Part shown: positions 189-52,518 of the stretch, piece by piece | How positions within the stretch are numbered: the stretch's first letter is position 1 | Layout: each line of letters starts with the position of its first letter | Source of the DNA: a virus | Direction: 5' to 3' (one strand) | Virus record (IMG/VR): IMGVR_UViG_2786546475_000019 | Span: 974-64,973 of that record | DNA length: 64,000 bases | Position numbers and translations under genes: made by a program | Notes under the pieces: generated by a model | Told to the model about the DNA's origin: nothing | Seen by the model: only the letters and a program-made list of their open reading frames with translations | Databases searched by the model: none

Positions 189-214
189 GGAGGTCGATCC
201 AGGTTATCATGTGG

Positions 215-792: not shown

Positions 793-793
793 G

Positions 794-826
794 GGCTTGA
801 ACGGTGACAGGTTCAAGCCTATTTCA
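794..826 (+). terminator. hairpin GGCTTGAAC-N8-GTTCAAGCC followed by TATTTCATT; weak terminator-like element just upstream of the 856 gene
   Basis: perfect 9-bp stem at 794-802 / 811-819; the T tract is poor. Confidence 0.3.
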
Positions 827-855
827 TTAAATCCTTATTTGGAAGGAATACCACT

Positions 856-10265: not shown

Positions 10266-10274
10266 GGTGATAAA

Positions 10275-13218: not shown

Positions 13219-14894
13219 TAACTGAACTGTTTGACCATTTAGCCGAAAGCTTAACCCACAGCACAATCACAAATTGTGCTCAGTGGGCGTTAGAGCGTAG
13301 GGTTATGGGACGACCGTTCGAGGGCCCATGGAATTTTAAATTATTTCCGTGGTTATACACTCCGCACGTTTCCAACCATCCATTTCGGTTGGCATTGAAA
13401 GGTGCTCAATTAGGGTTTACAGAGTGGGCAATTAACGAAGCTTTTTACGCTATTGATCATAAGCGTTCAAATGTTTTATATTGTCTGCCTACAAAGGGCA
13501 ACGCGGGTGACTTTTCAACCACCCGCTTCAACCCTGCCCTAGCCCTTAGCCCCTATATCGCGAACTTGTTCTCTGGTGCAGATAATGTATCATTGAAGAC
13601 GGCAGGTTCTCGGTCACTGTATATTAGGGGTTCAAAGGCTAGAGCAGACTTGAAGTCTTTGCCAATTACTGTTTTGATACTTGACGAAATTGATGAAATG
13701 CCTAAAGAGTCAATCTCTCTAGCTCATCATCGTCTTGATGGACAAGCCGTAGGTTCAACTTCATTGCTTGAATTATCAACTCCTACTCTACCTGATATGG
13801 GGATTGACGCTGAGTACAAATTATCAAACCAGATGATTTACGTATTCCAGTGCCCAGGATGTAGCAAGTATATTGACTTGCAATACCCTAGGAATTTTAA
13901 GCTAACTGCTACGCGAATGAACGATCCTGACATTGAAAAGAGTTATTTCTTTTGTCACGAGTGTGATTACGTAATAGACCACGAAGCCAAACCAGAGATT
14001 TTTAAATGCAAGGAAATGGGCGGCACGGGTCACTACAGACCGCAAGTAAAATATGCTGACCGAGAAGGGTACTATGTAAATCAAATGTACTCCTCGGCCA
14101 AAGGCGGAACGCCAATTGAGTGGGCTAAAGCCGTAATACTTGCAGAAACAAATCCGTCAAAAGAACAAGAGCTTTGGAACTCTAAAGTTGGTAAAGGCCA
14201 TGCAACAGAGAACGCAAAGCTAGAAGAAGGAGTCTTAGAGCAGCATAAGCGAAACTACACTATTGCCGACTACGAACTCCATGATAATCGTATTAGAACA
14301 ATTGGGTGTGATGTTGGAGCAGTTTGCGATTTAGTGTGCTTAGAGTGGACGTGGGAGTCTGATCTTGGCCTGCCTAATGATAGATACCGTCCTCGACTGG
14401 TAGGTGAATTATCATTGCCCCGATCTTCGGAAGATGCCCGAGCCATTTTGGACTACTTCCGAAAGATGAACGCTCATATGTTTGTTATGGATTCCGAACC
14501 TGAAAGTCGTTTTGCTCGACAAGTCATCAATTTGCTAGGCGACTATGGGTTCATGTGTGATTATGGGAAAGGATACAAAGCAGGACAAGTTAATGTTAAA
14601 GAAGAAGATGGCTTTATCACTGTAAATCGAACTACATGGTTGGATATAACTATGTCTCGATTCACAGCTGCTAACAAAGACGGAACAGATTTACCTAGCG
14701 ACATAAGCGAACGATTCCTTCAACATATGACAGCCCCTGCTAGATATTACAAAGATGATGCAAATGGCGACCCCATAGCTATTTACAAAAATGAAAAAGC
14801 GGATCACTTGTTTCATGCGTGGACCTACGCTGAGATAGGATTGCCTCTTTACTTCCTAACAGCCGAAGGCGAAGATATCGATGTTATCTTTTAG
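13215..14894 (+). CDS. terL: terminase large subunit, GpA-like
   Basis: LKGAQLGFTEWAINEAFYAIDH...LYCLPTKGNAGDFSTTRFNPAL and zinc-ribbon FQCPGCSKYIDL resemble the lambda GpA family; followed by a portal-sized ORF. Confidence 0.75.
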   Translation: MITELFDHLAESLTHSTITNCAQWALERRVMGRPFEGPWNFKLFPWLYTPHVSNHPFRLALKGAQLGFTEWAINEAFYAIDHKRSNVLYCLPTKGNAGDFSTTRFNPALALSPYIANLFSGADNVSLKTAGSRSLYIRGSKARADLKSLPITVLILDEIDEMPKESISLAHHRLDGQAVGSTSLLELSTPTLPDMGIDAEYKLSNQMIYVFQCPGCSKYIDLQYPRNFKLTATRMNDPDIEKSYFFCHECDYVIDHEAKPEIFKCKEMGGTGHYRPQVKYADREGYYVNQMYSSAKGGTPIEWAKAVILAETNPSKEQELWNSKVGKGHATENAKLEEGVLEQHKRNYTIADYELHDNRIRTIGCDVGAVCDLVCLEWTWESDLGLPNDRYRPRLVGELSLPRSSEDARAILDYFRKMNAHMFVMDSEPESRFARQVINLLGDYGFMCDYGKGYKAGQVNVKEEDGFITVNRTTWLDITMSRFTAANKDGTDLPSDISERFLQHMTAPARYYKDDANGDPIAIYKNEKADHLFHAWTYAEIGLPLYFLTAEGEDIDVIF

Positions 14895-16407
14895 AAACAC
14901 TTCCGACTCGTTCAACTTTGATTTGAATATTACCAAATGGTATGAAGCTTATTATGGCGGGTATCAATTCATTGATAAATATCTGTACCAACAATCAAGC
15001 GAAAAGACAACTGAATTTGAGATACGTAAAAAGATTGCGTACAACCCTCCAGTATTGCAAAACGAGGTAGATCGTATTTTAAGAGCCGTCCAAGAACGTT
15101 TGCACTTGGTCAAACGGCGTAACGGCTCTCGAACCTATCAACAAATGGTAGCAGGAGAGAACGGCGGAGTAGATTATTTTGAGACCAACATGAATTTGTT
15201 TATGGCGGATCAAGTTCTACTTCACTTACTGATAGGCGGCGGGTGTGGAATCTTTATTGATAATTACGGCCCCGAAGATTTAACGTTTGAAGGGAACACT
15301 CACCCGTTCCTTCGAGTAGTTCCTCGTTACAAAATCACGCAAATGGAATACGGAGCTAATCGACAATTTGATAAAGTTTGTTTTGAAAATTTCAAATTTG
15401 AACGAGATTCAGACGGTCAACTTTGGTACACAGTTTACGACACGGACCCCGAAAAAGAGAAAGAGATCGATACACAAGGCCAATTGGAACTAAGCCGTAT
15501 TCCTTTTGTGTGGATTGAAATGCCACGACCCTTGTTGCGAGATGCAGCTGATATGCAAATTGCTTTGTTGAACCAACACTCAACTGAGCTTGAGTTCGCT
15601 ACCAAGTACAACTTTCCAATTTATTACGAGTACACGTCTCCTCGCGGTGGCGGAGACGTGCGTGATAAAAATCGAGAAATTGAACTTACCAAAACAAAAG
15701 GACGTAAAGTTAAACAAGGTTCTGGCCCTCCAGGTTATGTTACCCCGCCAACTGAAAATTTGGACGCGTCCATGCGTAAGAGTGAGCAGATCACTCAATT
15801 GATAAAAGACACTATCAATTCGAACATGGAAGAAAATAAAGAGGATGGTCAAAGCGGCTTGTCCTCATTGGGTCGCTTAATGGAGCGAGCGGAAAATGAA
15901 GTAGCCACGCTTCTAGAAGAATATATCAATGAAGGCGGACAAGCAAGAGTTTGTTACCCAAAAGTGTTCACCCTTCAAACGGTTGAAGAACGAACAGCTG
16001 AAGCTGAACTGTTTGAAAAAATGAGCAATTGCGTACCATCCAAAACGTTTCGAATGGTAACGCATAAGCAAAAAGCAGAAACGCTACTTGGCCCTGTTCT
16101 AACTACCGAAGAACTTGATGTTATATTCAAAGAGATCGAAGAAGCTCCGGCTTCGTGTGTAAACCCTGAAATGCTTTTAAAGCTTCTAGAAAAAGGAGCT
16201 TTGACTACTCATTTAGTTAATGAAATTCTTGGGTATCCTGCTGACGAAGCAGATAAAGCTTTGGAGCAACTTGCTGACCGAATGGCCGTCACTGTGGTAG
16301 CTCAAAGCAAAGCTAAAGAAGTTCAAAGTGATAGTTTACCAGACGACGCTCGACAAGCTCAACGCGGCGAGCAAGATGTTCCTAATGATATTGGAGAGCC
16401 TACCTAA
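14881..16407 (+). CDS. portal protein
   Basis: 508 aa, directly after terL with an overlap; acidic C-terminus; called by synteny. Confidence 0.6.
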   Translation: MLSFRNTSDSFNFDLNITKWYEAYYGGYQFIDKYLYQQSSEKTTEFEIRKKIAYNPPVLQNEVDRILRAVQERLHLVKRRNGSRTYQQMVAGENGGVDYFETNMNLFMADQVLLHLLIGGGCGIFIDNYGPEDLTFEGNTHPFLRVVPRYKITQMEYGANRQFDKVCFENFKFERDSDGQLWYTVYDTDPEKEKEIDTQGQLELSRIPFVWIEMPRPLLRDAADMQIALLNQHSTELEFATKYNFPIYYEYTSPRGGGDVRDKNREIELTKTKGRKVKQGSGPPGYVTPPTENLDASMRKSEQITQLIKDTINSNMEENKEDGQSGLSSLGRLMERAENEVATLLEEYINEGGQARVCYPKVFTLQTVEERTAEAELFEKMSNCVPSKTFRMVTHKQKAETLLGPVLTTEELDVIFKEIEEAPASCVNPEMLLKLLEKGALTTHLVNEILGYPADEADKALEQLADRMAVTVVAQSKAKEVQSDSLPDDARQAQRGEQDVPNDIGEPT

Positions 16408-17757: not shown

Positions 17758-19122
17758 ATGGCTTCGCCTAACGATGCGTTGATTCCTGAGCTATGGGCCC
17801 AGGAAGCTATTAACTTGATGTGGGAAAATTTCCTTTTCGGGCAATTGTTCCACACCGAATTCAAAAACCAAATTGCTGTTGCTGGCGACGTGGTTAACAC
17901 CTCTCGACCTGTTCGGATGCGTGCTCACCGTAAGAACAGCGACATTCAAACTATCAATGACCAAACCGCACGTTCAACTAATATCAAAGTTGAACTGAAC
18001 CAGCAAATTTACGTTTCGTTCTTGCTGGGTTCACGGGACCGGTCTTTGAGTTTTGTTGACTTGACAAGCAAGTATCTTGTCGAAGCGATGCAAGCTCAAA
18101 TCCGAATGATCGATCGCTCGATTGCTGGACACATTGCATTGTTCTTGGCCAACGCAGTTGGTACTTCAGGAACTATCAGTGCGTCTAACGCTTACAACCA
18201 ACTCACGTTGGCTCGTAAGAAACTGAACGATTACAATGTTCCTGAGCCAAACCGTCGGTTTGTCTTTGGCAATCGTTCGGATATCGCGTTCTTGCAAGAT
18301 GATCGCTTTATCAATAGCGATTACAACGGCATGGGCGGTACAGCGGTTCGCGAAGCGTATCTTGGTCGAACTCTCGGCTTTGATATGTTCCGTTCGCCAA
18401 ACTTGCCTATGGCTGAGAACTGCCCTCAACAGTCGCCAACGACTGTTGACGGAGCGGCAGCAGCAGGAGCTACGACTATTGACGTAGCAACTGGTACAGC
18501 CCCAGCTGTGAACTCGTACATCGAGATCGCAGGGGAAGGTTCTCCAAACTTGGTCACGGGAGTTTCAACTGATACTCTCACCTTGAAGCGTCCTCTGCGT
18601 AACGCCGTTGCTGACGGTGCCGCAGTCAAGATTTTCTCTCAAGGTGCTGTGAATAACGCAGCAGGCCACGATGCTGGTGATAACTTTGACGCCAAGGCAA
18701 ACGGTTACGCTGCTAACTGGGCCGAGGACATTGCTGTTGACGGTAACGTCCCAGCAGTTGGTCAAATTATCTCGTTTGCTTCGCATGACGCCGAGTACGT
18801 TGTTGTGAATCTCGAAGGTAGCAACATTCTTTTGGATCGCCCATTGGAAGCTGCAATCGATGACAATGACACTGTTGCTTTGGCTGGTGACTTCGAATTG
18901 AACTTCGCGTTTAACCCGAAAGCTATCGGTATCATTTCCCGTCCATTGGCTGTGGAGATGGAAGGAACTGGCGTCCGTTCAGCAATCGCCGAAGGTTATG
19001 GCTTTGGTGTTCGCGTGGATATCGGTTTTGACGGGACCAAGCAAGCACAACGTGTGACCATCAGCTCGTTGCTCGGTCTCAAGCAGTTGGATGAAGAACG
19101 CGGAGTACCTCTCCTTGCGTAA
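17758..19122 (+). CDS. major capsid protein
   Basis: 454 aa, GGAG RBS, directly after the scaffold; Ala/Gly/Val-rich. Confidence 0.7.
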   Translation: MASPNDALIPELWAQEAINLMWENFLFGQLFHTEFKNQIAVAGDVVNTSRPVRMRAHRKNSDIQTINDQTARSTNIKVELNQQIYVSFLLGSRDRSLSFVDLTSKYLVEAMQAQIRMIDRSIAGHIALFLANAVGTSGTISASNAYNQLTLARKKLNDYNVPEPNRRFVFGNRSDIAFLQDDRFINSDYNGMGGTAVREAYLGRTLGFDMFRSPNLPMAENCPQQSPTTVDGAAAAGATTIDVATGTAPAVNSYIEIAGEGSPNLVTGVSTDTLTLKRPLRNAVADGAAVKIFSQGAVNNAAGHDAGDNFDAKANGYAANWAEDIAVDGNVPAVGQIISFASHDAEYVVVNLEGSNILLDRPLEAAIDDNDTVALAGDFELNFAFNPKAIGIISRPLAVEMEGTGVRSAIAEGYGFGVRVDIGFDGTKQAQRVTISSLLGLKQLDEERGVPLLA

Positions 19123-21641: not shown

Positions 21642-24600
21642 ATGGCCAAGCAATACGATATTGATACCCAACCTGCGATTAAAAGTCTCGCTGATTTAAC
21701 ATCAATGGTAGGGAAGCTGACTAAAAAGTCAGAAACTTATAATGATAGGCAACGTACCGCGAACCGAGCACTTAAAACTGCTGGGGATCGCCTTGTTACG
21801 TTTAAAGATAATGTCAAGCACGCTGCTTCCGGTGTTCGATCTTTGAACACGGCTCTTGACAAAATGGACACAACCAATGATAATTTCAACAAATTAAATA
21901 CGGCTGCTGGTGTTTTAGGCCGAAGACTAGATAGCTTAGAGACTAAAGCCGGAACTACTATCATTCGGTTGGGGGAATTACGCACAGCCGCAGGTCGAGC
22001 AGCAGGGGCTTTGGAGCGTGAAAAGAAAATCATTGGAGAGTTAAACAGCTCTCTAAGTCAAATGAACCAACGCTTCAAGCGTATGGTTCAAATCTTTGAT
22101 GATAAGAACCAAAAGTTGAATCTGCAACAAAGGGCAATGCTGGCAGACGCTAGAGCCATGGGCCAAGGTACTAAGTCTGCTAACCTGCTCTCTCGTACTT
22201 TGCGACGATTGAGAGATATTGTCGGAACGTTCGCAGGATATGGAGCTTTGTTCCTTATCACTAACGAGCTACGTCAATCCATTGGTTCCGCAAAAGAATA
22301 CGCTAAAGCCATTTCCGAGATTAGAACAATCTCGGACCGAGCTGCAGTCTCCAGTCAAGAGTGGACCAATAAGCTTTTAGAACAGTCTAATGCGTATGGC
22401 TTTACGTTTCTGGATCAAGCCGAAGCTGCGTATCAATCTCTTTCGAATCAGGTCACCAACGCTGGTGATACTTTTGCTTTCTTGCGGTCAGAAGCTGCTT
22501 TGTCTATGGTAGCAGTTTCTTCGTTGGAAGCTGCAACTAACTCAACAACTGCTACATTGAACGCGTTTGGAGACTCGGCAGGAGCTGCTAGTCGCGTGAA
22601 CGCAATTCTGTTTAAGACGGTTGAAGAAGGTCGTATCCGCTTGGAAGACATGGCGAATACAATTGGTCGTGTTTCGATTCTATCATCCCAACTTAACATT
22701 AGCTTTACGGAACAACAAGCTGCTTTGACTCAACTAACAAAGCTTGGTGTACGGACCGAAGAAGCTATGACATTGTTGCGTAACGTCGAACTTAAATTGT
22801 TGAAGCCGTCGGAACGAATGTCTGAGCTGTTCAAAGAGTGGGGCTTTACCTCAGGTCAAGCAGCAGTTGAGACGTTAGGATTGGCTGGCGTCATGGAGAA
22901 GTTTGTCGAAACTGCTAAACAAAATGGCGACGTAGCCGCAGAGCTGGGTGATATTTTCAATCGCTTGAGGGCTATTGTCGGTGTCGCTGGTTTGACTCAA
23001 GCCTCATTAACTGAGGAAATGGAGAAGTTTGAGAACGCGTCGGAAAGTGCTTTAGGTGCTTTCTTGGAGCGAATTAACTCAATTGATACTAGAGCTAATC
23101 GCCAAATTCAACAGTTTAAGAATACGTTTGTTTCGGAGTTTGGGGCTCCTATTCTTAAAGTTCTTGTTGAGACCGCCGAAGGTATGGGCGGCATGGAAGC
23201 TGCAACAATTCAATTGATTCGCAACTTGAAACAGCTAGTGACAATTGGCGGAACTGTAGCCACGGCCCTTGGCGTCTTGGCCACAGGTCGTGGAGTTTAC
23301 GCCCAAGTTACGTACTGGACTAACCAGTACCGGATTGCCACTCTAGCAAATACAGCGGCTTTGTCGGCGGAACAAGTGGCATTAGTTCAAGCGTCAAGGG
23401 CTCGGATTGCCTACGCTTTGACTTCGCTAGGTGTGGCGGGGGGCGTAGCGTTAATTGCATATCAAATATATCAAGCCACTCAAGCTCACGAAGACTACGC
23501 GTCAAGTGTAAGACAAGCTGCTGCTGAGTTCCGTAACAACTTTGGACCGGACGGGCTTAAAGCTTATGAAACGCTTAATGTCGAAATCAACAACACTACC
23601 GAAGCAGCTCTAAAGCAAACACGAGCAATGCGTAGGGCCTTTGGAGAAAGTGCCGCCGCTATTACTCGCAACTTGAACGCGTTAGAAGCGGCAAATGATA
23701 GTACCATTAACGCACTAGACGAATCTATCTCCGCCTACGTTGATAAGATGGAGTCTAAGTTCCAGAAGATTCTTCGGGAAAGTGCCAAGATTTCAGCCAA
23801 GCTAGCTAATAATATTGCTCAAGGTACAGCGGCCACACAACAAGTTGATCTTAGCTTACGTGTGCGTCGACAAGTATCTAATATCAACCAAGGTGCTGAC
23901 CCTTTAATGGGGTACAAAAAGCTGTTCAAGCAGCTTGAGGCTGAGGCTTTTGCAGCTCTTGATAAAGGAGATAAACAACGAGCAGATAATCTGTTTGCAG
24001 AAGTTGACAAGCTAGTTTCTGAGTATCGCAAACGATACACTAATATTAAAGCTCCGACGCTCCCTATTCCAACTATTCCTGCGAACGCTACGCCGATGAT
24101 GCGTAGGCGATATCGAGGATACATTGAAAACATCAAAAAGCAAAATGCTGAGATTAAGAAAGCAACTGCTGATGATAAAGCGGAACTTAACCGAAAATTT
24201 GAAGAAGGTCAAATTAAGTTTTATCAACGACGTAATGATAAAATCAAAGAATACATTGAACTTCTTAAGAAACAAAAAGCTGCCGAGGATAAAGCTCGTG
24301 AAGTAATGACTCAAAAGTTTAAAACTTTTGAAAATATTTTCGAACAAGTTGATGAAGCTAAGACGGGAGACGAAGTTCGATCTCTTACTAATAAATTCAA
24401 AACAGCTTCCGCTGGTGTTCTGGACCCAACGGAACGTCTTAAGTTTATTCGGGACTTGAACCAGAAAGCCCTCGCTTTAGACGAGAAAGCAGAGATTGAG
24501 CGTAAACGAGTTCTGGTTGCACGGGCCAAAGAAACCCAAGAGGCGTACTTAAAGACTCGCGACGAATTGATAAAACGTCAAGAAGAAGCTCGACGTAAGC

Positions 24601-25241
24601 TCAATGAGTCCTTGACTATTAACTTAACAGACGGGGAGTTTGCAGATCGGTTTGCTAATAAAGATAAAGCGTTACAAACCATAATTAAAGACGCCCAAAA
24701 ACAAATTAGGCGATCCAAAGCTAGGTTAACTCCGGGTTGGCTTGTAAAGGAAGACAGCATTAGAGCGGAGAAGTTGACTCTGCGAGAAGCTGAACAGACT
24801 TTAAAAAGGGCTATGGCTCAACAAAAAACTCTTAAAGATCTTTATCGCCAAGTTAAGGACTTTAACCTCAAGCCTACTGATAAAAAAGCCGAAGCTTTGA
24901 TGGATACTTTAGGTAACCTTCCAGGTTTCGAAAAGTTTACTAATAAGATTGGGCAAGCAGCTGATGAAGTGAACCGGTTACGTAACCTTTCGCTCCAACC
25001 ATTTGATTTGAAAATTGACGCTGACGCCAGTTTGGAAACAATTCGAAAATTGCAGAAAAATATAGACATGTTGCGAGAAGGGTTGGAGTTGACACCAATT
25101 AATTTTGCTCCGCTTCAACAACCTACTACTCAAAACAACATTACGTTCAACGTATCTCCGGGCCAAGGACCAGATGCTTTGGTGGCGGACGTTACTGATA
25201 AAATTTACGATGCCTTTAGACGAGGATTGATAAACGTATGA
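21642..25241 (+). CDS. tail tape measure protein
   Basis: 1199 aa, long coiled-coil/helical regions with a central hydrophobic Gly/Ala-rich segment; canonical position. Confidence 0.85.
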   Translation: MAKQYDIDTQPAIKSLADLTSMVGKLTKKSETYNDRQRTANRALKTAGDRLVTFKDNVKHAASGVRSLNTALDKMDTTNDNFNKLNTAAGVLGRRLDSLETKAGTTIIRLGELRTAAGRAAGALEREKKIIGELNSSLSQMNQRFKRMVQIFDDKNQKLNLQQRAMLADARAMGQGTKSANLLSRTLRRLRDIVGTFAGYGALFLITNELRQSIGSAKEYAKAISEIRTISDRAAVSSQEWTNKLLEQSNAYGFTFLDQAEAAYQSLSNQVTNAGDTFAFLRSEAALSMVAVSSLEAATNSTTATLNAFGDSAGAASRVNAILFKTVEEGRIRLEDMANTIGRVSILSSQLNISFTEQQAALTQLTKLGVRTEEAMTLLRNVELKLLKPSERMSELFKEWGFTSGQAAVETLGLAGVMEKFVETAKQNGDVAAELGDIFNRLRAIVGVAGLTQASLTEEMEKFENASESALGAFLERINSIDTRANRQIQQFKNTFVSEFGAPILKVLVETAEGMGGMEAATIQLIRNLKQLVTIGGTVATALGVLATGRGVYAQVTYWTNQYRIATLANTAALSAEQVALVQASRARIAYALTSLGVAGGVALIAYQIYQATQAHEDYASSVRQAAAEFRNNFGPDGLKAYETLNVEINNTTEAALKQTRAMRRAFGESAAAITRNLNALEAANDSTINALDESISAYVDKMESKFQKILRESAKISAKLANNIAQGTAATQQVDLSLRVRRQVSNINQGADPLMGYKKLFKQLEAEAFAALDKGDKQRADNLFAEVDKLVSEYRKRYTNIKAPTLPIPTIPANATPMMRRRYRGYIENIKKQNAEIKKATADDKAELNRKFEEGQIKFYQRRNDKIKEYIELLKKQKAAEDKAREVMTQKFKTFENIFEQVDEAKTGDEVRSLTNKFKTASAGVLDPTERLKFIRDLNQKALALDEKAEIERKRVLVARAKETQEAYLKTRDELIKRQEEARRKLNESLTINLTDGEFADRFANKDKALQTIIKDAQKQIRRSKARLTPGWLVKEDSIRAEKLTLREAEQTLKRAMAQQKTLKDLYRQVKDFNLKPTDKKAEALMDTLGNLPGFEKFTNKIGQAADEVNRLRNLSLQPFDLKIDADASLETIRKLQKNIDMLREGLELTPINFAPLQQPTTQNNITFNVSPGQGPDALVADVTDKIYDAFRRGLINV

Positions 25242-35655: not shown

Positions 35656-36347
35656 TTGCTTCTCCGGTTAGCTTGATAATTTGCGATTGAAAACCCACGA
35701 GGAGTCATACTACGAATCTCTTTTACGTTAGGGTGTGATCCTCCAATTTTACCATATTGCCGGGAGTATCCATCTTCTGGTATCACTTTCTTTTTAGGCG
35801 GCATCTTAAACCCGCCACCTGTCCACAGGTATGTTTCCTTCGGGTACGCGTCCCGTGGAGCAATATATTGTGGCCAAGTAGGGTGTTCATCATCTTCTGG
35901 TAAGTACCCACCGTATTCGTACGGGTGAAACTTGTAATCTGGTTTACGCCACAAAGATGATAGTCTCGATTTAGGATTCTCAATGAACCACGGACATTGC
36001 AACTCTGTGAAAACGCGACGACACCAGATAGCGTAACGTGCAGCTTTGTATTGGAAGTCTGGATCGTGGCCTTCTTTCGAGGGCCAGTGAATAATTCCAG
36101 AGACTGCCAAGTCGGTACAAACAGGGAACGCCGCCCCAAATACCACTTCCTTTCCTTGAAAAGTATCAATGATACGCCTAACTTGTTCCAGGTCGTGAAG
36201 GTCAGCCTTGTGGAAATGAATCACGTTGTCCCCGATCCGTTGTCGATGATCTACGTGCTTTATATCGTAAGCATGACATTCGTAACCTGCTCTGGCCCAA
36301 GGATGAAGTAACACCCCGGAGTGATCGTACAAGCTTAAAACTATCAT
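35652..36347 (-). CDS. C5-cytosine-methyltransferase-like protein (short, divergent)
   Basis: FPVCTDLAVSG (PC motif IV-like), FIENP (motif VI-like), RSMTPRGFSIA (motif X-like); motif I degenerate (LYDHSG). Confidence 0.4.
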   Translation of the reverse strand: MIVLSLYDHSGVLLHPWARAGYECHAYDIKHVDHRQRIGDNVIHFHKADLHDLEQVRRIIDTFQGKEVVFGAAFPVCTDLAVSGIIHWPSKEGHDPDFQYKAARYAIWCRRVFTELQCPWFIENPKSRLSSLWRKPDYKFHPYEYGGYLPEDDEHPTWPQYIAPRDAYPKETYLWTGGGFKMPPKKKVIPEDGYSRQYGKIGGSHPNVKEIRSMTPRGFSIANYQANRRSK

Positions 36348-37168
36348 ACGGCCACGTCACCTTTGATAGCCGGATGGGGATTGTAACCTTCAAGAATAAT
36401 ATCTTCCCACCGAAGTGATAAAATATTCTCCAAAGGAGATAACACCGGATCAGCTTGCCTTGCAAAACGAAGCTTTGGAGCTTCTTTAGCTGGGCGTCTC
36501 AACTGTAGGTTGACTTGATCTACGTGGTTGTTGTAGATATGAGCGTCGCCAAACGTATGGTAATACGTCTTGGGTTTAAGGTCCGTGGCCCACGCCAAAA
36601 TGTACATAAGCAACACGTAGGATGCAATGTTAAACGGAACGCCAAGAAACATATCAGCAGAGCGTTGATACATTTTCAAGGACAGTTCTCCATTTGATAC
36701 GTAGCATTGGAAAAACATATGGCACGGCGGTAAGGCCGCATCTCCACCTGGAAGGTGATGTTTTGGGTGCCAAGCAGAGCAAATAACTCGTCGGCTGTTT
36801 GGAGACTCAGTTAGGCAATCAAGCACGTACTGAATCTGATCTACGCCGTTGAAGTCTCTCCACATCTTCCCATACACCGGACCAAGCTCTCCGGCAGCGT
36901 CTGCCCATTCGTCCCAGATATGAACATTCAGGTCTTGTAACGATTTGATATTTGTCTCTCCTCGAAGAAACCACATCAGTTCCTCAAATACCAACCGCAA
37001 AGGTACAAACTTTGTAGTGAGCAATGGGAAGTGACTACTGATTGTTCCGTAAATTTGAGGGCCGAATAGACGAATTGTTCCGGTCCCTGTTCTATCATCA
37101 TGTGTTTCTCCGTGGAGCAAAACACTTTTAAGTAATGACAGATACTGTTGTTCTAACGCTGAATACAT
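36344..37168 (-). CDS. thyA: thymidylate synthase ThyA
   Basis: DRTGTGT, LPPCH, YQRSADMFLGVPFNIASY, C-terminal PHPAIKGDVAV; Asn of FNIAS retained (dUMP type). Confidence 0.9.
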   Translation of the reverse strand: MYSALEQQYLSLLKSVLLHGETHDDRTGTGTIRLFGPQIYGTISSHFPLLTTKFVPLRLVFEELMWFLRGETNIKSLQDLNVHIWDEWADAAGELGPVYGKMWRDFNGVDQIQYVLDCLTESPNSRRVICSAWHPKHHLPGGDAALPPCHMFFQCYVSNGELSLKMYQRSADMFLGVPFNIASYVLLMYILAWATDLKPKTYYHTFGDAHIYNNHVDQVNLQLRRPAKEAPKLRFARQADPVLSPLENILSLRWEDIILEGYNPHPAIKGDVAV

Positions 37169-37320
37169 TAAGTGCTCCTTTGTTTTAGGTACGTGTCTAA
37201 GGTAATTACTGCTGCTTCAATAGTAGACTTCTCCTGTTCAAATTCTTTCAATAGGATCTCCTGATGATCTTTGGAAAGAATTATCAATGAATTTCTAGTT
37301 CTGATTTTTTTTTTTTTGAC
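37168..37320 (-). other. start-less 50-codon frame opening one codon before the A13 run and ending in TAATG on the thyA start
   Basis: no ATG/GTG in frame; would be fused to 37295..37573 if the run were A12. Confidence 0.35.
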
Positions 37321-37573
37321 CTATTTTAACTGCCAGTATTAAATCTTCAACGTTCCAGGCGTCAGTTTCAATACCAGTAAATGATAGTTTTCGATTCTCA
37401 GGACCGGTATAAATTACTCCGCCCAAGTCATAGATCATATTAGATCTGAATGTTGCACTGTCTGGTGTAACATTGTAGACTCGCTCGCAATGAAGAATCC
37501 GTTCACAAGCCGTAGCCCAATCCGAACACCATTGGTTAACAACTACTTCATCTTGGAAATTGATAAATACCAT
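37295..37573 (-). CDS. hypothetical protein ending in a poly-Lys tract encoded by A13
   Basis: 92-aa ORF; 3' end GGT CAA AAA AAA AAA AAT CAG AAC TAG. Confidence 0.5.
   Translation of the reverse strand: MVFINFQDEVVVNQWCSDWATACERILHCERVYNVTPDSATFRSNMIYDLGGVIYTGPENRKLSFTGIETDAWNVEDLILAVKIGQKKKNQN
37305..37317 (-). repeat. 13-nt homopolymer (A13 on the coding strand)
   Basis: T13 on the + strand at 37305-37317. Confidence 0.95.
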
Positions 37574-37585
37574 AAACAGCCTTTC

Positions 37586-38236
37586 TTAAACCATATTCAA
37601 AGTAATTGGAGGTTTGTCGCTTTTTAAAAGTTTAGCTAGCTTTTCTAACGCTCGCTTTTCAAGTTGACGAACTCTTTCTCGCGAGATATTAAGAGTTTCC
37701 CCAATAGTCTTAAGAGGAATCCCTTGGGCTCGTAGCCTCAAAACTAAAGCATCTCGACTATTTAACTCAAGAAAAGCTTTTTCTAGAGCAATAAGCTCCT
37801 CTTGCCATTCTATCAAATCCCTATCAAGACATTCTAAAGGTGTAACAGGGTTATTAAATAGCCCGTGTAAGGTTTGAAACATTGGAGCACGAGCTATAGC
37901 AGCTTTAGCTCTGTCAAGATGAGCTGGATTTGGAGATACTTTAATTAACTCCACCTTGGTTTTCATGTAAGTTATCATTCGTTGTTTCACCCACGGAGTG
38001 GCGTAAGTTGAAAACTGATAACCTTTACTAGGGTCAAATTTTTTGACCGCCTGACATAACCCACTCATTCCTTCTTGAATTAAATCGTCTAAATCAAGCT
38101 TAGAATTTTTCTTGGCAAAAGACACCGCTATCTTGATAACCAATCCTTGATTATCTAACACTAACCGATTGAGTGCTTCATCAGCTTCCTTTCTAGCAGA
38201 ATGATATTTTTGTAATAACTCGTCATTAGTATCCAC
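37586..38236 (-). CDS. sigma-70 family RNA polymerase sigma factor (group-3-like)
   Basis: region 2 DDLIQEGMSGLCQAVKKFDPSKGYQFSTYATPWVKQRM; region 4.2 TIGETLNISRERVRQLEKRALEKL. Confidence 0.85.
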   Translation of the reverse strand: MDTNDELLQKYHSARKEADEALNRLVLDNQGLVIKIAVSFAKKNSKLDLDDLIQEGMSGLCQAVKKFDPSKGYQFSTYATPWVKQRMITYMKTKVELIKVSPNPAHLDRAKAAIARAPMFQTLHGLFNNPVTPLECLDRDLIEWQEELIALEKAFLELNSRDALVLRLRAQGIPLKTIGETLNISRERVRQLEKRALEKLAKLLKSDKPPITLNMV

Positions 38237-38239
38237 AGT

Positions 38240-38425
38240 TCACTCACAATCTAAAGGGAATTGTTCATGTATTTCCAAACTCACAACCAACTTCCCACAC
38301 TTAGGACAACGAACCGACTGTTTTCTTTTCTTGAGCCGATGCTCAAGCTCCTGTTTTGTTGACCGTTGTTCAGCGGGAAAAGTTGTTTTGACTACCACAG
38401 GCTCCGGGGTTTCATTTACGTCCAT
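38240..38425 (-). CDS. small zinc-ribbon protein
   Basis: 61 aa, CPKCGK motif. Confidence 0.45.
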   Translation of the reverse strand: MDVNETPEPVVVKTTFPAEQRSTKQELEHRLKKRKQSVRCPKCGKLVVSLEIHEQFPLDCE

Positions 38426-38805: not shown

Positions 38806-39149
38806 TTCAAAACCTCGTTACACCACTCTTCCAAATCATTCACCCAACGTCCAGCTAAGTTGAACACAAACCATAAATGATACCACTTATGGTCTTTACC
38901 TAACTGCGTTTCGAAAGCTTCCTTCCACCACTCACTTGGTATCTGAAAATTACCCCATCGAGGCGTTTCGTCTCTTGCCCAGCGTTCAAGAACTGTTTGC
39001 ACGGTCCGTGCTACTTGCTTCAAGGAGTCTTCTTCGAATCCTTTCACACTTGCGACAAGTAAATCACGAAGTGATAATCCGTTGTCTTTTGCAAGCTCCT
39101 GAATCTTTTTGCGAGCTACTTCAGACATTTCAATTTTTAATGTTGGCAT
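38802..39149 (-). CDS. possible ribbon-helix-helix DNA-binding protein
   Basis: N-terminal LKIEMSEVARKKIQELAKDNGLSLRDLLVASV has a strand-helix-helix pattern. Confidence 0.3.
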   Translation of the reverse strand: MPTLKIEMSEVARKKIQELAKDNGLSLRDLLVASVKGFEEDSLKQVARTVQTVLERWARDETPRWGNFQIPSEWWKEAFETQLGKDHKWYHLWFVFNLAGRWVNDLEEWCNEVLK

Positions 39150-39327
39150 TCATTTTCTCCGATACGAAAATATAGATTGTACGAAACGTTAGACTAACAG
39201 TCACAAACCAAAGCACAATGAACGTAGGAAATGAGTGCCAAGCTTTCATATCACAGTGATGTAAGAAATATGCCAACAAATACCCCGAAGCAATTGTTAA
39301 TAGGCTAAATAATATCACTTTTACCAT
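39130..39327 (-). CDS. small membrane protein
   Basis: 65 aa, two hydrophobic helices. Confidence 0.45.
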   Translation of the reverse strand: MVKVILFSLLTIASGYLLAYFLHHCDMKAWHSFPTFIVLWFVTVSLTFRTIYIFVSEKMNANIKN

Positions 39328-43911: not shown

Positions 43912-44387
43912 TCCGGCTCAGTAGTTCCAACGTATCCCATACCTTTGCCAAGAATCTTGTCTTGATAATAATACCATCGGTATGAGAAGATACAGTCTTC
44001 GAAATCTCCGGCCAAGCCTTTATAATATCCAGGCATAGCCAAGTTTGGAGGAGTAAGAGGGCCACGTCGTATGTAACACGGAGATTGATAAAGATACCCA
44101 ACCCGGTTCCATACTTCATGTAAAGCTAACCCTCTCTTATCCCGCTCCTTCAACAACGCTATCATATGCTTCAAAGTCCATTGATAATTTGAATCAGTGG
44201 AACGAACCCATTGAGTTGACGGGTGATTTGCGAAGCATGGTTTACACATTCCTTGACGCCAAAGTCCAACTTCGTCATGTGCCGTTGATAACATTTGGGC
44301 ACACTCAATCGGCATTTTTGTTAAATGGTCCGTGGCCATGTAGCTAGCTGCAAGGACCGGGTCCATATCAAGGAAGAAAACATTCAC
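43881..44387 (-). CDS. conserved phage protein of unknown function
   Basis: N-terminal FFLDMDPVLAASYMATDHLTKMPIECAQMLSTAH recalls a widespread phage/virus family I cannot name with confidence. Confidence 0.5.
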   Translation of the reverse strand: MNVFFLDMDPVLAASYMATDHLTKMPIECAQMLSTAHDEVGLWRQGMCKPCFANHPSTQWVRSTDSNYQWTLKHMIALLKERDKRGLALHEVWNRVGYLYQSPCYIRRGPLTPPNLAMPGYYKGLAGDFEDCIFSYRWYYYQDKILGKGMGYVGTTEPEWLLHLKGKL

Positions 44388-44770
44388 GCCCCAAGTCCAA
44401 GCGATTTGATGGAAGCCCTTTTGAGTGCTGTCAAGGTAACAACACGTCCAAGTAGCTTGGAAAGTGTTTCTTCGAAGTTATCAAGTTGCTCCGATAATTT
44501 GTATTCGAAGCCGTTCAAAAGTATCACTTCTTCCAAGTTCTCAGAAACCCAAGAATTTAAGTCTTGGTCTTTCACAAGATACTTACCGTCTTGAATCGTT
44601 AACTTGCCATTGATAGTTGGGCCTTTCAATTCGTCTCGCCAAATTTTCACGTTTTCAGGAGCGGTTATGTTAATTGAAGCAGCTCCTGATCCTGCATCAA
44701 AGATTGTTACCCGAACGTCGTTCCCAATTGTAAATGATTGCGACGCCCAGCGTTTAAGAGTTAACGCCAT
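44384..44770 (-). CDS. hypothetical protein
   Basis: 128-aa ORF. Confidence 0.5.
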   Translation of the reverse strand: MALTLKRWASQSFTIGNDVRVTIFDAGSGAASINITAPENVKIWRDELKGPTINGKLTIQDGKYLVKDQDLNSWVSENLEEVILLNGFEYKLSEQLDNFEETLSKLLGRVVTLTALKRASIKSLGLGA

Positions 44771-51284: not shown

Positions 51285-51629
51285 TCAGTCTCCTCTTATC
51301 AATTGATAAATTTCTTTGTAAGTATGTACTGGCATATTATACTTGTCCGCTATATCCTGCCAGTTCTCTTCCCACCAGCTAAAAGAATGACACTGACCCC
51401 CAACTTTCAACACTCCAAAGTCTTGGTTGACTTCTACTTTGCGGCCGTGTAAAATTCCGAGTGTTATCAGTTTGCCGTAGCCGTAGCCGTAGCCGTAGCC
51501 GTAGCCGTCGCCGTCGCCGTAGCCGTCGCCGTAGCCGTAGCCGTAGCCGTAGCCGTCGCCGTAGCCGTAGCCGGTCCCGTAGCCGGTCCCGTAGCCGGTC
51601 CCGTAGCCGTCGCCGTGGTTACTTAACAT
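51285..51629 (-). CDS. protein with an N-terminal Gly-Tyr(-Asp/Thr) repeat region
   Basis: GDGYGTGYGTGYGTGYGYGDGYGYGYGYGDGYGDGDGYGYGYGYGYG followed by a ~60-aa non-repetitive domain. Confidence 0.55.
   Translation of the reverse strand: MLSNHGDGYGTGYGTGYGTGYGYGDGYGYGYGYGDGYGDGDGYGYGYGYGYGKLITLGILHGRKVEVNQDFGVLKVGGQCHSFSWWEENWQDIADKYNMPVHTYKEIYQLIRGD
51474..51616. repeat. hexanucleotide microsatellite (GCCGTA/GCCGTC/GCCGGTCCCGTA variants) encoding the GY repeats
   Basis: about 143 nt of near-perfect 6-nt periodicity. Confidence 0.9.
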
Positions 51630-51640
51630 TTGATAGTTCC

Positions 51641-51730
51641 TTATAAATGATCAACTTTGGTCTTTGCTTCACGCGGACCGATGTACGGTTCCAACGTAAA
51701 TAAGTCATTGATATTTTCACATAGTTTCAT
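51641..51730 (-). CDS. tiny coupled ORF (29 aa)
   Basis: ATGA overlap with the TraR/DksA stop; preceded by AACAGGAGAGCAAG, nearly identical to the RBS block of 50190..50981. Confidence 0.35.
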   Translation of the reverse strand: MKLCENINDLFTLEPYIGPREAKTKVDHL

Positions 51731-51933
51731 CTTGCTCTCCTGTTTGCTCGCTTAGCGAGTCGTTGAGTTTCAGGATCGTCCGGAAGTATCACTAGCGATC
51801 CTGCGGTCTTATGGCCGTACACCATGTACCCTGTAGCACGCTCCGTGGTGCTACAGGTTGCACACGTCATTGTGTGCGGAAGTACCTCTAAGCGTTCACT
51901 ATCAATTTGTGTTTTGCAGTTTATGCAGTTCAC
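51727..51933 (-). CDS. TraR/DksA-family C4 zinc-finger protein
   Basis: CINCKTQIDSERLEVLPHTMTCATC. Confidence 0.55.
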   Translation of the reverse strand: MNCINCKTQIDSERLEVLPHTMTCATCSTTERATGYMVYGHKTAGSLVILPDDPETQRLAKRANRRAR

Positions 51934-52178
51934 TCTTGCTCCTTCCAGAACTTGATATTTTTGACAACCCCTTCGGCGAGGTCAGCGATAGAATCTATCA
52001 CTTCTCGCTCACAACCGGGAATGGTGTAGAAGTAATTAAACTCCCCACCCTCGGTGAAGGTAACAAGTTGCGTGAAGCGACCCTTGTTTATCTTGGACAA
52101 GTGCCAGTAGACTTCGCGAACGCCTTCGTTAAGAAAAATGTAACAGGGAGTTTCGCCAATGACTTTAGTTTCGTACAT
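51930..52178 (-). CDS. hypothetical protein
   Basis: start moved to ATG 52178 behind GAAAGGATTATCATG (same RBS block as the B cassettes). Confidence 0.45.
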   Translation of the reverse strand: MYETKVIGETPCYIFLNEGVREVYWHLSKINKGRFTQLVTFTEGGEFNYFYTIPGCEREVIDSIADLAEGVVKNIKFWKEQE

Positions 52179-52188
52179 GATAATCCTT

Positions 52189-52518
52189 TCAGATTGAGTA
52201 AGTGCGAGATTGAAGTGCTTGTTTCGGTTCACGGCCCTTGTACTTAGTTCCAGGCTGCTCGAACCACGTTCCACGTGAGATGTGAATATCCAAGTCAAGA
52301 TATTCATACTTCGGGACGTTATAATAGTCTGCTAAGTCGTAAACGTCCAGATTATCAAGATCTGGAATTGGTCGCAACGTAATATGCGACAGTACGTAAG
52401 CCGCCACATTACGTTGCTTACGCTTGAGCGTTGGGTTAGCCGCTTGGACCGTGGCCCACAGCCGCTCAAAAGACTCTAGAGTTGGACACAACTCAATGAT
52501 AGATACTCTCTTAGACAT
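52189..52518 (-). CDS. hypothetical protein
   Basis: start moved to ATG 52518 (ATGTCTAA overlap with the upstream stop). Confidence 0.45.
   Translation of the reverse strand: MSKRVSIIELCPTLESFERLWATVQAANPTLKRKQRNVAAYVLSHITLRPIPDLDNLDVYDLADYYNVPKYEYLDLDIHISRGTWFEQPGTKYKGREPKQALQSRTYSI

What the first reader, a model, noticed from the sequence alone, without database searches (positions are those of the whole stretch)
37168..37573. A13 homopolymer at a gene end opens a start-less frame that is TAATG-coupled to thyA
Gene 37295..37573 ends ...GGT CAA AAA AAA AAA AAT CAG AAC TAG. In the frame reached by dropping one A, a stop lies immediately upstream of GTC-A13. That frame then stays open for 50 codons with no ATG or GTG, and ends TAA overlapping the thyA ATG (37168-37166). 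Without it there would be a 126-nt non-coding gap in an operon where nearly all junctions overlap. The options are programmed ribosomal or transcriptional slippage on poly-A giving two C-terminal isoforms, a phase-variable tract, or a homopolymer sequencing error (true A12).
Basis: partly seen in the sequence, partly recalled or inferred. Interest (0 to 1): 0.6.

Follow-up and report, generated by a model that had tools for sequence, protein, structure and literature searches.

The report
Unstable poly-A run splitting a phage gene
A run of 13 A's, the only long single-base run in this marine phage genome, splits a small gene of unknown function. Other assemblies of the same phage carry 12 A's (gene intact, 134 codons) or 11 A's, so this is a length-unstable, slippage-prone tract or a sequencing miscount, not a new recoding mechanism.

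Summary
On the minus strand a 92-codon ORF (37573-37295) ends just after C-A13 (37317-37305). With one A fewer, the frame runs 50 codons to a TAA that overlaps the thyA ATG.

New evidence:
- The window is a tailed marine phage from Tara Oceans. Eleven public contigs carry it.
- Every stretch fetched around the tract (3.8-20 kb) has zero mismatches to the window. Only the tract length differs.
- I infer 5 contigs with A12, 5 with A11 and 1 with A13 (this window). A12 gives one intact 134-aa ORF. A11 gives a 95-aa ORF.
- The tract is the only homopolymer longer than 7 nt in 64 kb. The genome otherwise avoids AAA-AAA codon pairs.
- Codon usage in the tail fits coding. The gap holds no terminator, no significant promoter and no RNA structure.
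- No homologue exists outside this phage, so no comparative test is possible.

Best reading: one 134-codon gene holding a length-unstable A12±1 tract, with the window carrying the rarest, out-of-frame length. I cannot decide without reads whether the variation is biological or comes from Illumina/PCR stutter. By analogy with C. rodentium tssM1 and Thermus dnaX, RNA polymerase slippage should yield both full-length and truncated proteins from any allele.

Interest is modest: a new member of a known kind.

The parts
37168..37573 (-). The whole gene as I read it. With A12 it is 134 codons plus a stop. In this window one extra A splits it into a 92-codon ORF and a start-less 50-codon frame.
   Evidence: frames. 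P0004, 134 aa, is encoded uninterrupted on L001 with A12. L001 has 0 mismatches to the window over 20.4 kb and one 1-nt gap.
37295..37573 (-). ORF92, the zero-frame product of the A13 allele (N-terminal domain plus the tail QKKKNQN). ATG at 37573-37571, TAG at 37297-37295. Weak AAGAAAGG Shine-Dalgarno upstream.
   Evidence: P0002 = NCBI MBF84059.1. Codon-usage log-likelihood ratio is 9.8 per 44 codons, typical of genes in this genome.
37305..37317 (-). A13 tract (T13 on the plus strand). Encodes Gln-Lys-Lys-Lys using only CAA/AAA. Length is 11, 12 or 13 in different assemblies.
   Evidence: A11 in L002-L004, L006, L007; A12 in L001, L005; A13 in the window; only run longer than 7 nt; six other KKK runs are all broken by AAG; expectation 5e-3 to 6e-5.
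37171..37320 (-). Frame open for 50 sense codons in the +1 frame, from GTC-A13 onward. It is bounded 5' by TAG 37323-37321. It encodes the C-terminal 44-45 residues (I)RTRNSLIILSKDHQEILLKEFEQEKSTIEAAVITLDTYLKQRST of the 134-aa form.
   Evidence: codon log-likelihood ratio +3.4. This is the 8th percentile of true in-frame windows. At most 0.9% of off-frame windows and 5% of open off-frame windows reach it.
37168..37170 (-). TAA stop of the long frame, overlapping the thyA ATG (TAATG).
   Evidence: L001 genes 10001-10405 and 10405-11229 overlap by 1 nt.
37285..37287 (-). In-frame TTG, the only possible independent start for the tail (39 aa). In the A11 allele the 95-aa ORF's TGA overlaps it as TTGA.
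   Evidence: none of 27 neighbouring genes starts with TTG. The 20 nt upstream (AAATCAGAACTAGAAATTCA) hold no GGAG/GAGG-like Shine-Dalgarno, unlike most neighbours.
36344..37168 (-). thyA (thymidylate synthase), the downstream gene. It has its own AAGGAG Shine-Dalgarno at 37180-37175, inside the tail frame.
   Evidence: phrog_160, 1.5e-101; PF00303, 2.6e-97.
37586..38236 (-). Sigma-70-family factor gene, 12 nt upstream of the split gene.
   Evidence: phrog_351, 1.9e-43. (Sigma70_r2 and r4).

Best explanation
The 406-nt interval is one small phage gene. It has 134 codons, unknown function and no homologues, and it sits between a phage sigma-factor gene and thyA. About two thirds of the way along it carries a homopolymeric A tract that is in frame at 12 A. 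The window holds a 13-A copy. That shifts the frame, so the N-terminal domain ends 3 codons after the tract and the last 44 codons lose their start.

Shown here:
- The tract is 11, 12 or 13 A in different assemblies, and every stretch fetched around it is otherwise identical to the window.
- Only A12 gives the long ORF.
- A11 and A13 both stop within 3-6 codons of the tract.

Inferred:
- The tract is truly length-unstable. DNA polymerase slips on it, so natural populations are mixed.
- The host multisubunit RNA polymerase, redirected by the phage sigma factor, also slips on it. Any allele then yields a mix of mRNAs.
- The cell therefore makes both the full-length 134/135-aa protein and truncated 92-95-aa forms.
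- Only full-length translation ends at the TAATG junction that couples into thyA.

Not resolved: whether the extra A in this particular record is a real minor allele or an Illumina/PCR/assembly miscount.
For: 1. The A12 form exists and is intact. P0004 (134 aa) was found on 5 contigs, and the one whose DNA I read (L001) carries A12. The Tara gene-catalogue entry P0003 has the same junction.

2. I infer 5 contigs with A12, 5 with A11 and 1 with A13 among the 11 that carry this thyA. Tract length was read directly in only five contigs besides the window; the rest follow from which protein form was found. Zero mismatches to the window over 3.8-20.4 kb around the tract. The 1199-aa tape measure protein is identical on all 11 contigs.

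3. Length differs by run, not simply by assembler.
- Three Logan assemblies that I read give A11, while the A12 protein P0004 is also recorded from Logan.
- The MEGAHIT assembly of ERR594309 and the Tara catalogue gene named TARA_122_MES_0.1-0.22 (whether it is the same sample as ERR594309 is unverified) both give A12.
- Run ERR594388 and the TARA_SAMEA2621191 scaffold give A11.

4. The tract is a compositional outlier in a genome that avoids A runs.
- It is the only run longer than 7 nt.
- Expected number of runs of 13 or more is 5e-3 to 6e-5.
- AAA-AAA makes up 8 of 66 Lys-Lys codon pairs, against 37% expected (P = 4e-6).
- All six other KKK runs are interrupted by AAG.

5. The tail looks coding. 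It is open for 50 codons, has a codon log-likelihood ratio of +3.4, and ends in a TAATG junction like other junctions in the operon.

6. The gap has nothing non-coding to explain it. There is no terminator, no Rfam hit and no RNA structure (z = 0.52).

7. Published precedent.
- An A11 tract in C. rodentium tssM1 gives 20-25% transcriptional frameshifting and two required isoforms (PMC4256274).
- Runs of 9 A/T slip efficiently in bacteria, and T. thermophilus dnaX uses nearby stops in both non-zero frames (PMC5009743).
- Ribosomes slide on iterated AAA codons (PMC4363877).
Against: - No reads were available. Illumina length errors at mononucleotide runs rise exponentially with length, are mostly 1-unit deletions, and are about 2.5-fold worse in PCR-amplified libraries (PMC4417121, PMC11878640). 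A true A12 with technical A11/A13 calls therefore remains possible.
- The 11 contigs are not 11 independent samples.
- There are no homologues. Conservation of the tract, or of the fused ORF, cannot be tested.
- The tail's codon score is only at the 8th percentile of real genes.
- The structure prediction was uninformative (pLDDT 35).
- No transcript or protein data exist.
- A KKK linker could carry the tract incidentally.
Confidence: 0.5

Rival explanations
1. Purely technical. The phage genome is fixed at A12 with a single 134-aa gene. A11 and A13 in public contigs are PCR stutter, Illumina homopolymer miscalls or assembler choices. The tract is just an incidental Lys-Lys-Lys linker with no role in expression.
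For: - A12 is the in-frame length and is at least as common as any other.
- The errors fall symmetrically one unit either side, with contraction (A11) far commoner than expansion (A13). That is the published stutter pattern.
- A11 appears in run ERR594388 of project PRJEB4419. From memory, this is the Tara viral-fraction project, and I believe its libraries were low-input and PCR-amplified; neither point was checked here.
- No other difference exists around the tract.
Against: - For a consensus to flip to A11 in at least four runs or samples, more than half of the reads would have to be wrong at a 12-nt run.
- The same assembler (Logan) yields A11 for the three runs whose contigs I read, and the A12 protein is also recorded from Logan.
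- This reading does not explain why the genome's only long homopolymer sits here, when every other KKK is broken by AAG.
- Even with a fixed A12, published data predict RNA polymerase slippage.
Confidence: 0.27
2. Two separate genes. The true state is A11 or A13. A 92-95-aa protein is followed by an independent 39-aa protein started at TTG 37287. In the A11 allele the TTG is coupled by a TTGA stop-start overlap. In A13 it would be reached by re-initiation 7 nt after the TAG.
For: - The TTG is in frame.
- In the A11 allele the upstream TGA overlaps it as TTGA, the same 4-nt overlap geometry used by many junctions in this operon.
- A11 is as frequent as A12 among contigs.
Against: - None of 27 neighbouring genes starts with TTG (25 ATG, 2 GTG).
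- There is no Shine-Dalgarno-like motif in the 20 nt upstream, whereas most neighbours have GGAG/GAGG.
- The A12 allele fuses the two cleanly.
- This reading does not explain the poly-A outlier.
Confidence: 0.08
3. The tail is not coding. The 126 nt form a 5' leader of thyA, and the open frame and TAATG are coincidence. A sigma-70-like promoter (TTGAAG-16-TAAAAT, 37350-37323) would start transcription inside the A run, allowing reiterative initiation.
For: - A promoter-like 9/12 match ends 5 nt before the tract.
- thyA has its own strong AAGGAG.
- A random frame stays open for 45 codons about 8% of the time.
- The tail's codon score is low for a gene.
Against: - 9/12 promoter matches occur at chance density: 35 found against 26.6 ± 5 in shuffles over 16.5 kb, and 1 against 4.3 over 2 kb.
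- The codon score is beaten by at most 0.9% of off-frame windows and 5% of open off-frame windows.
- The A12 allele makes a perfect ORF ending in a TAATG junction, the 1-nt stop/start overlap also seen at two other junctions of this operon.
- There is no RNA structure or Rfam match in the supposed leader.
Confidence: 0.08
4. Classical programmed ribosomal frameshifting from a fixed A13 genome. A set fraction of ribosomes shifts +1 (or -2) on the A run to make the long isoform.
For: - A-rich heptamers are highly shift-prone.
- Ribosomes slide on poly-A (PMC4363877; PMC5009743).
Against: - A13 is the rarest length, inferred on 1 of 11 contigs.
- The common -1 shift leads to a stop after 7 codons.
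- The fusion needs +1/-2, and there is no downstream hairpin or pseudoknot (z = 0.52).
- There is no prfB-like stop or Shine-Dalgarno context.
- On a run of 11 or more, RNA polymerase slippage would swamp any ribosomal effect.
Confidence: 0.04

Closest known systems
Citrobacter rodentium tssM1 (and Yersinia pseudotuberculosis tssM3) poly-A transcriptional frameshifting (PMC4256274)
   Same: A run of 11 A's made of AAA Lys codons lies inside a gene, with a stop a few codons after the run in the genomic frame. The full-length protein is reached by -1/+2 nt in the mRNA. This is exactly the geometry of the window's A13 allele. The Yersinia case mirrors the A12 allele: the genomic frame gives the long form and slippage gives the short form.
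   Different: There the tract length is fixed in the genome, and slippage (20-25%) and the need for both isoforms were shown experimentally. Here the DNA length itself differs among assemblies, nothing is shown at RNA or protein level, the protein is an orphan, and the element is in a phage.
Thermus thermophilus dnaX tau/gamma by transcriptional slippage on A9 (reviewed in PMC5009743)
   Same: The long product is encoded in a single ORF. Both non-zero frames have stops close after the run, so slipped mRNAs give a C-terminally truncated isoform. Here the stops lie 3 and 6 codons after the tract.
   Different: The dnaX site is conserved and functionally understood, with a 1:1 ratio. Here there is no homologue, no ratio, and a longer tract (11-13).
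Hypermutable homopolymer (contingency) tracts, including poly-G tracts in Campylobacter phage genes (Sørensen et al. 2021, Cell Rep 35:109214, seen only as an entry in the reference list of PMC10877375)
   Same: A homopolymer inside a phage ORF changes length by ±1 and switches between full-length and truncated product. Genomes that match wherever compared around the tract differ only there.
   Different: Those are poly-G tracts. From memory, that paper places them in receptor-binding genes and shows variation in cultured phage, with phenotypes; I did not read it. Here the tract is poly-A, in an early/nucleotide-metabolism operon gene of unknown function. The variation is seen only in metagenome assemblies, so a technical origin is not excluded.
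Poly(A)-tract frameshifted genes rescued by polymerase infidelity in Buchnera/Blochmannia endosymbionts (cited in PMC5009743)
   Same: Genes that are out of frame at a long A run can still yield functional protein through slippage.
   Different: Those genomes are AT-rich and full of A runs, a product of mutational decay. This phage genome has a single such run and otherwise avoids them.
Homopolymer-length error in short-read assemblies (PMC4417121, PMC11878640)
   Same: A ±1 length call at a mononucleotide run of 11 or more produces an apparent frameshift, with contraction commoner than expansion.
   Different: A pure error model does not predict that the tract is the only long homopolymer in the genome. 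It also does not predict consensus lengths that differ by run.

Membership tests
Programmed transcriptional slippage site (dnaX-Tth / tssM1 type) | Run of 9 or more A or T inside an ORF | tested here: met
   A13 at 37317-37305. A11 or A12 in other assemblies.
Programmed transcriptional slippage site (dnaX-Tth / tssM1 type) | One frame after the run encodes a substantial C-terminal region, and the other frames stop nearby, giving defined long and short products | tested here: met
   The +1 frame is open for 50 codons up to the TAATG. The zero frame stops after 3 codons and the -1 frame after 6-7.
Programmed transcriptional slippage site (dnaX-Tth / tssM1 type) | mRNA population heterogeneous in run length while the DNA is fixed | not testable with these tools
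   No transcript data. The DNA length itself is not fixed among assemblies.
Programmed transcriptional slippage site (dnaX-Tth / tssM1 type) | Conservation of the slippery run, or of both products, among homologues | tested here: inconclusive
   No homologue outside this phage in searches of 5.8e9 and 1.8e9 proteins. The nearest sigma-factor relative is 33-40% identical. IMG/VR, JGI and GTDB scans found nothing.
Simple-sequence contingency locus (phase variation), including phage poly-G tracts | Tract-length polymorphism among otherwise identical genomes | tested here: inconclusive
   A11, A12 and A13 are inferred on 5, 5 and 1 contigs, with 0 mismatches to the window in up to 20 kb around the tract. 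Without reads, Illumina/PCR stutter cannot be excluded.
Simple-sequence contingency locus (phase variation), including phage poly-G tracts | Length change switches the ORF between full-length and truncated | tested here: met
   A12 gives 134 aa, A11 gives 95 aa and A13 gives 92 aa.
Simple-sequence contingency locus (phase variation), including phage poly-G tracts | Tract is longer than genome composition predicts | tested here: met
   It is the only run longer than 7 nt in 64 kb. Expectation is 5e-3 to 6e-5. AAA-AAA is avoided elsewhere, P = 4e-6.
Simple-sequence contingency locus (phase variation), including phage poly-G tracts | Switching shown in a clonal lineage, with a phenotype | not testable with these tools
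   The phage is uncultured and the protein's function is unknown.
Programmed -1 ribosomal frameshift (X XXY YYZ plus downstream structure) | A -1 shift on the heptamer enters the extended ORF | tested here: not met
   The -1 frame reads KSELEIH then stops. The extended frame is +1/-2 relative to A13.
Programmed -1 ribosomal frameshift (X XXY YYZ plus downstream structure) | Stimulatory hairpin or pseudoknot 5-9 nt downstream | tested here: not met
   The 181-nt fold has z = 0.52 against shuffles and no stem adjacent to the tract. There is no Rfam match.
Programmed +1 ribosomal frameshift (prfB type) | Slow or stop codon at the shift site, with an internal Shine-Dalgarno about 3 nt upstream | tested here: not met
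   Read directly from the sequence. There is no in-frame stop at the tract, and only an AGG within TAGGTC upstream.
Homopolymer sequencing/assembly artefact | Other assemblies of the same genome give a different, in-frame length | tested here: met
   A12 in L001 and L005 and in Tara gene P0003.
Homopolymer sequencing/assembly artefact | Read-level lengths are unimodal at one true value, with spread equal to control homopolymers | not testable with these tools

The most novel reading that the evidence does not exclude
A marine siphovirus-like phage keeps a single hypermutable, slippery A12±1 tract as a viral contingency or isoform switch. This happens in a genome that otherwise purges A runs. 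The tract sets the ratio of a full-length to a C-terminally truncated form of an orphan protein encoded next to the phage sigma factor. It also gates translational coupling into the thyA nucleotide-metabolism genes. The A11, A12 and A13 forms seen in different Tara samples would then be real subpopulations with different early-gene programmes.
Probability: 0.2. Interest if true: 0.55.

Novelty: new member of a known kind. Interest (0 to 1): 0.3.

Why it matters
Practical value:
- The deposited record is labelled an Acidobacteria MAG. It annotates a truncated 92-aa protein and leaves a 126-nt 'gap'. The gene is almost certainly 134 codons.
- This is a concrete case for treating frameshifts at homopolymers of 11 or more in metagenome-assembled phage genomes as length-uncertain.

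Biological value, if the length variation is real:
- It would be a poly-A counterpart, in an uncultured marine phage, of the hypermutable poly-G tracts of Campylobacter phages and of the tssM1/dnaX isoform switches.
- The site is unusually clean: the only long homopolymer in the genome, and no other difference from the window in any stretch fetched around the tract.
- It could be tested directly from existing Tara reads and metatranscriptomes.

It does not open a new mechanism.

Tried and rejected
Searches for related sequences:
- Megablast of 2 kb against 50,697 phage records found no match.
- tblastn of the fused protein against phages gave only a chance hit, E = 6.
- PHROGs and Pfam gave no significant family for the fused protein. 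The best E-values were 0.029 and 0.0077, both below the cut-offs.
- The word-indexed search of 5.8e9 proteins found only the phage's own cluster.
- The full HMMER scan of 1.84e9 representatives found only itself plus a weak repeat match (E = 3.8e-5) to a 2128-aa RTX/Ig-like adhesin, P0005. I judged that uninformative.
- Exact-pattern scans with a variable-length gap in IMG/VR, JGI metagenomes and GTDB genomes gave 0 hits.
- The search for related loci with the orphan protein and with the sigma factor in IMG/VR found no relatives.
- The sigma-factor homology search, meant to find a sister phage for synteny, gave a next-best hit of only 33-40% identity. No comparative test is possible.

Structure and RNA:
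- AlphaFold2 on the 134-aa protein (single sequence) gave mean pLDDT 35.5, so it is unusable and I ran no fold search.
- An RNA fold of the tract plus gap gave z = 0.52, so no stimulator is present.
- An Rfam E-value scan gave only chance-level hits.
- The terminator and promoter scans found no terminator in the gap. They found one 9/12 promoter-like site abutting the tract, at chance density.

Other:
- A literature search for the run and sample accessions, to learn the library types, returned nothing.
- Exact look-up of the 92-aa product found no gene on record. The A13 form is known only from the NCBI record and this window.

Readings considered and rejected:
- The tail as an independent TTG-started gene (no TTG starts or Shine-Dalgarno).
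- Classical -1 programmed frameshifting (wrong frame).
Full report
**1. What is in the sequence**

I read 38400-36000 on the minus strand and translated the three frames.
- An ATG-started ORF (37573-37295, 92 aa) ends GGT CAA AAA AAA AAA AAT CAG AAC TAG.
- The run is 13 A (37317-37305).
- In the frame reached by deleting one A, a TAG (37323-37321) sits directly before GTC-A13.
- That frame is then open for 50 codons. Its TAA (37170-37168) overlaps the ATG of thyA (36344-37168; PF00303 2.6e-97 and phrog_160 1.5e-101).
- A sigma-70-family gene lies 12 nt upstream (37586-38236).

There are two corrections. The open frame does hold an in-frame TTG (37287-37285). The one-A-fewer product reads GQKKKIRTRNS with three Lys, not four.

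**2. Is the tract more than chance?**

Yes.
- It is the only homopolymer longer than 7 nt in the 64-kb window. A/T runs of length 4, 5, 6 and 7 occur 486, 130, 23 and 3 times. There are none of length 8-12 and one of length 13.
- The expected number of runs of 13 or more is 5e-3 under an order-0 model and 6e-5 under an order-5 model trained without the tract. For runs of 11 or more the figures are 0.065 and 0.0024.
- The genome actively avoids A runs in lysine codons. AAA is 61% of Lys codons, yet only 8 of 66 Lys-Lys pairs are AAA-AAA (binomial P = 4e-6).
- The six other KKK tripeptides are all interrupted by AAG.

**3. What the window is**

It is a tailed phage.
- PHROGs finds a large terminase, portal, major head protein, 1199-aa tape measure, primase and helicase.
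- Neighbouring contigs add a family-A DNA polymerase and a ligase.
- NCBI labels the source contig 'MAG: Acidobacteria bacterium'.
- No similar DNA exists among 50,697 phage records.

**4. The key result: other copies of the same genome**

The word-indexed protein search returned a single cluster. Its four members are the same protein with different ends.
- P0004: 134 aa, the uninterrupted fusion.
- P0003: a Tara catalogue gene with the same fused junction.
- P0001: 95 aa, tail ...QKKKSELEIH.
- P0002: 92 aa, this window (NCBI MBF84059.1).

I fetched the encoding contigs and counted the run.
- A12 in L001 and L005 (MEGAHIT assembly of ERR594309, project PRJEB1788).
- A11 in L002 (ERR2752150), L003 and L006 (TARA_SAMEA2621191 scaffold_159), L004 (ERR594388) and L007 (ERR2752149).
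- A13 only in the window.

Eleven contigs carry this thyA. The look-ups account for them as 5 with A12, 5 with A11 and 1 with A13. This tally is partly inferred. I read the tract directly in five contigs besides the window. The other four A12 contigs and one A11 contig follow only from which protein form was found.

Every fetched stretch around the tract is identical to the window apart from the run length, with 0 mismatches over 3.8-20.4 kb. The tape measure protein is identical on all 11 contigs. The only other differences seen are these:
- one SNP in L010;
- 36 SNPs in scaffold_159, confined to window 51557-52369 beside an N gap;
- 93-95% identity in scaffold_159 over window 3-1336.

Some strain diversity therefore exists in these samples.

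**5. Is the tail coding?**

- With A12 the gene ends TAATG on thyA. This is a 1-nt overlap of the kind seen elsewhere in the operon.
- Of 26 same-strand junctions, 17 overlap and 5 are gaps of 9-20 nt. Of the four larger gaps, two hold small genes and a third is closed by a longer gene call in another assembly's annotation.
- A codon-usage log-likelihood ratio, trained on 49 long ORFs, gives +3.4 for the 44 tail codons in the fused frame.
- True in-frame windows average 9.8, so the tail sits at the 8th percentile. At most 0.9% of off-frame windows and 5% of open off-frame windows reach +3.4.
- The other two frames of the gap are full of stops.
- The gap has no terminator, no RNA structure (z = 0.52) and no Rfam match.
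- One 9/12 sigma-70-like match (37350-37323) ends 5 nt before the tract. Such matches occur at chance density.
- An independent TTG start is unlikely. None of 27 neighbouring genes uses TTG, and the TTG lacks the GGAG-type Shine-Dalgarno that most neighbours have.
- I note one point in favour of two genes. In the A11 allele the upstream TGA overlaps the TTG as TTGA, so a coupled two-gene reading is not impossible.

**6. Mechanism**

Shown:
- The three run lengths give three products.
- Only A12 gives the long one.
- The two out-of-frame lengths stop 3 and 6 codons after the run.

Inferred from published work:
- On runs of 9 or more A/T, bacterial RNA polymerase slips efficiently (PMC5009743).
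- An A11 run in C. rodentium tssM1 gives 20-25% frame restoration and two required isoforms. The Yersinia homologue works in the opposite sense (PMC4256274).
- T. thermophilus dnaX uses exactly the 'stops in both other frames' layout.
- Ribosomes also slide on iterated AAA (PMC4363877).
- The phage encodes a sigma factor, which implies that the host multisubunit polymerase transcribes this operon.

I therefore expect every allele to give a mixture of full-length (134/135 aa) and truncated (92-95 aa) protein, in allele-dependent ratios. Only full-length translation would terminate on the thyA start. thyA also has its own AAGGAG (37180-37175), so coupling is not essential.

Classical programmed ribosomal frameshifting fits poorly. 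The -1 frame is the short one and no stimulator is present.

**7. Real variation or miscount?**

This is unresolved.

For a technical origin:
- Illumina/PCR length errors at mononucleotide runs rise exponentially with length.
- They are mainly one-unit deletions and are about 2.5-fold worse with PCR (PMC4417121, PMC11878640).
- The 5:5:1 pattern centred on the in-frame length, with contraction favoured, looks like stutter.

For a biological origin:
- The consensus differs by run rather than simply by assembler. Three Logan assemblies give A11, while the A12 protein is also recorded from Logan. Two different pipelines give A12: the ERR594309 MEGAHIT contig and the Tara catalogue gene, which may or may not come from one sample.
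- Flipping a consensus needs more than 50% erroneous reads.
- A 12-nt run replicated by a phage polymerase is expected to be unstable.
- The run is a striking outlier in a genome that purges such runs.

I put about 0.5 on real instability plus slippage, and about 0.27 on a purely technical origin. The rest is shared among the two-gene, non-coding and ribosomal readings.

**8. Comparison and novelty**

The closest known systems are listed below.
- tssM1/tssM3 and Thermus dnaX: same geometry, but slippage is unproven here.
- Homopolymer contingency loci, including the poly-G tracts of Campylobacter phages (Sørensen et al. 2021, seen only in the reference list of PMC10877375).
- Poly-A rescue in endosymbionts.

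Membership in the 'programmed' classes cannot be claimed. mRNA heterogeneity, conservation and function are untestable here, because there are no homologues anywhere.

This is a new member of a known kind, or else an annotation artefact of a known kind. Interest is 0.3.

**9. Dead ends**

- The structure prediction failed (pLDDT 35).
- All attempts to find a diverged relative failed.
- The accession look-up in the literature returned nothing.

Noticed in passing
window 1-64000 (e.g. 13215-14894 TerL, 14881-16407 portal, 17758-19122 major head, 21642-25241 tape measure): The source contig is deposited at NCBI as 'MAG: Acidobacteria bacterium' (locus tags CL489_...). It is in fact a siphovirus-like phage genome of about 72 kb. 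Tara assemblies recover it repeatedly at 71.4-72.3 kb. It is probably a mis-binned complete phage.
   Followed up: partly
window 51557-52369 and 3-1336 (against L011 = TARA_SAMEA2621191 scaffold_159): Scaffold_159 matches the window wherever else it was compared. It carries 36 SNPs packed into about 800 bp next to a scaffold N gap, and it is only 93-95% identical over the first 1.3 kb of the window. This is a local hypervariable or recombinant segment, or a strain mix in that sample.
   Followed up: partly
window-wide; Lys-Lys codon pairs in ORFs of 100 aa or more: The genome avoids A runs. AAA-AAA makes up 8 of 66 KK pairs although AAA is 61% of Lys codons (P = 4e-6). No homopolymer other than the focal tract exceeds 7 nt.
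   Followed up: yes
window 37350-37323 (- strand): A sigma-70-like TTGAAG-16-TAAAAT ends 5 nt before the A tract, so a start site would fall in the first A's and allow reiterative initiation. Matches of this quality are at chance density in the region.
   Followed up: partly
window 37284-37287 (- strand): In the A11 allele the 95-aa ORF's TGA overlaps the in-frame TTG as TTGA. This is the same 4-nt stop/start overlap that many ATG-started genes in this operon use.
   Followed up: partly
window 44384-44770 (- strand; L001 2804-3190): The phage operon encodes a CsrA-family protein (PF02599, precomputed hit). Nearby are MazG-like, ParB-like, DUF1937, RNase T and DNA methyltransferase genes. A phage-borne CsrA could be a host-takeover regulator.
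   Followed up: no
window 38240-38425 (- strand) and window about 39130-39327: Two apparent intergenic gaps of 155-179 nt in some gene calls hold small ORFs of 61 aa (with a CPKC motif and weak zinc-ribbon hits) and 65 aa. These are called only in the Tara scaffold annotation. The operon is packed more tightly than most gene calls suggest.
   Followed up: no
P0005 (2128-aa RTX/Ig-like protein), residues about 613-642 and 7 other stretches: The only non-self hit of the orphan protein (residues 43-73, FRSNMIYDLGGVIYTGPENRK...) is to a repeated segment of a giant RTX adhesin-like protein (E = 3.8e-5). It may be a short beta-strand repeat motif and does not inform function.
   Followed up: partly
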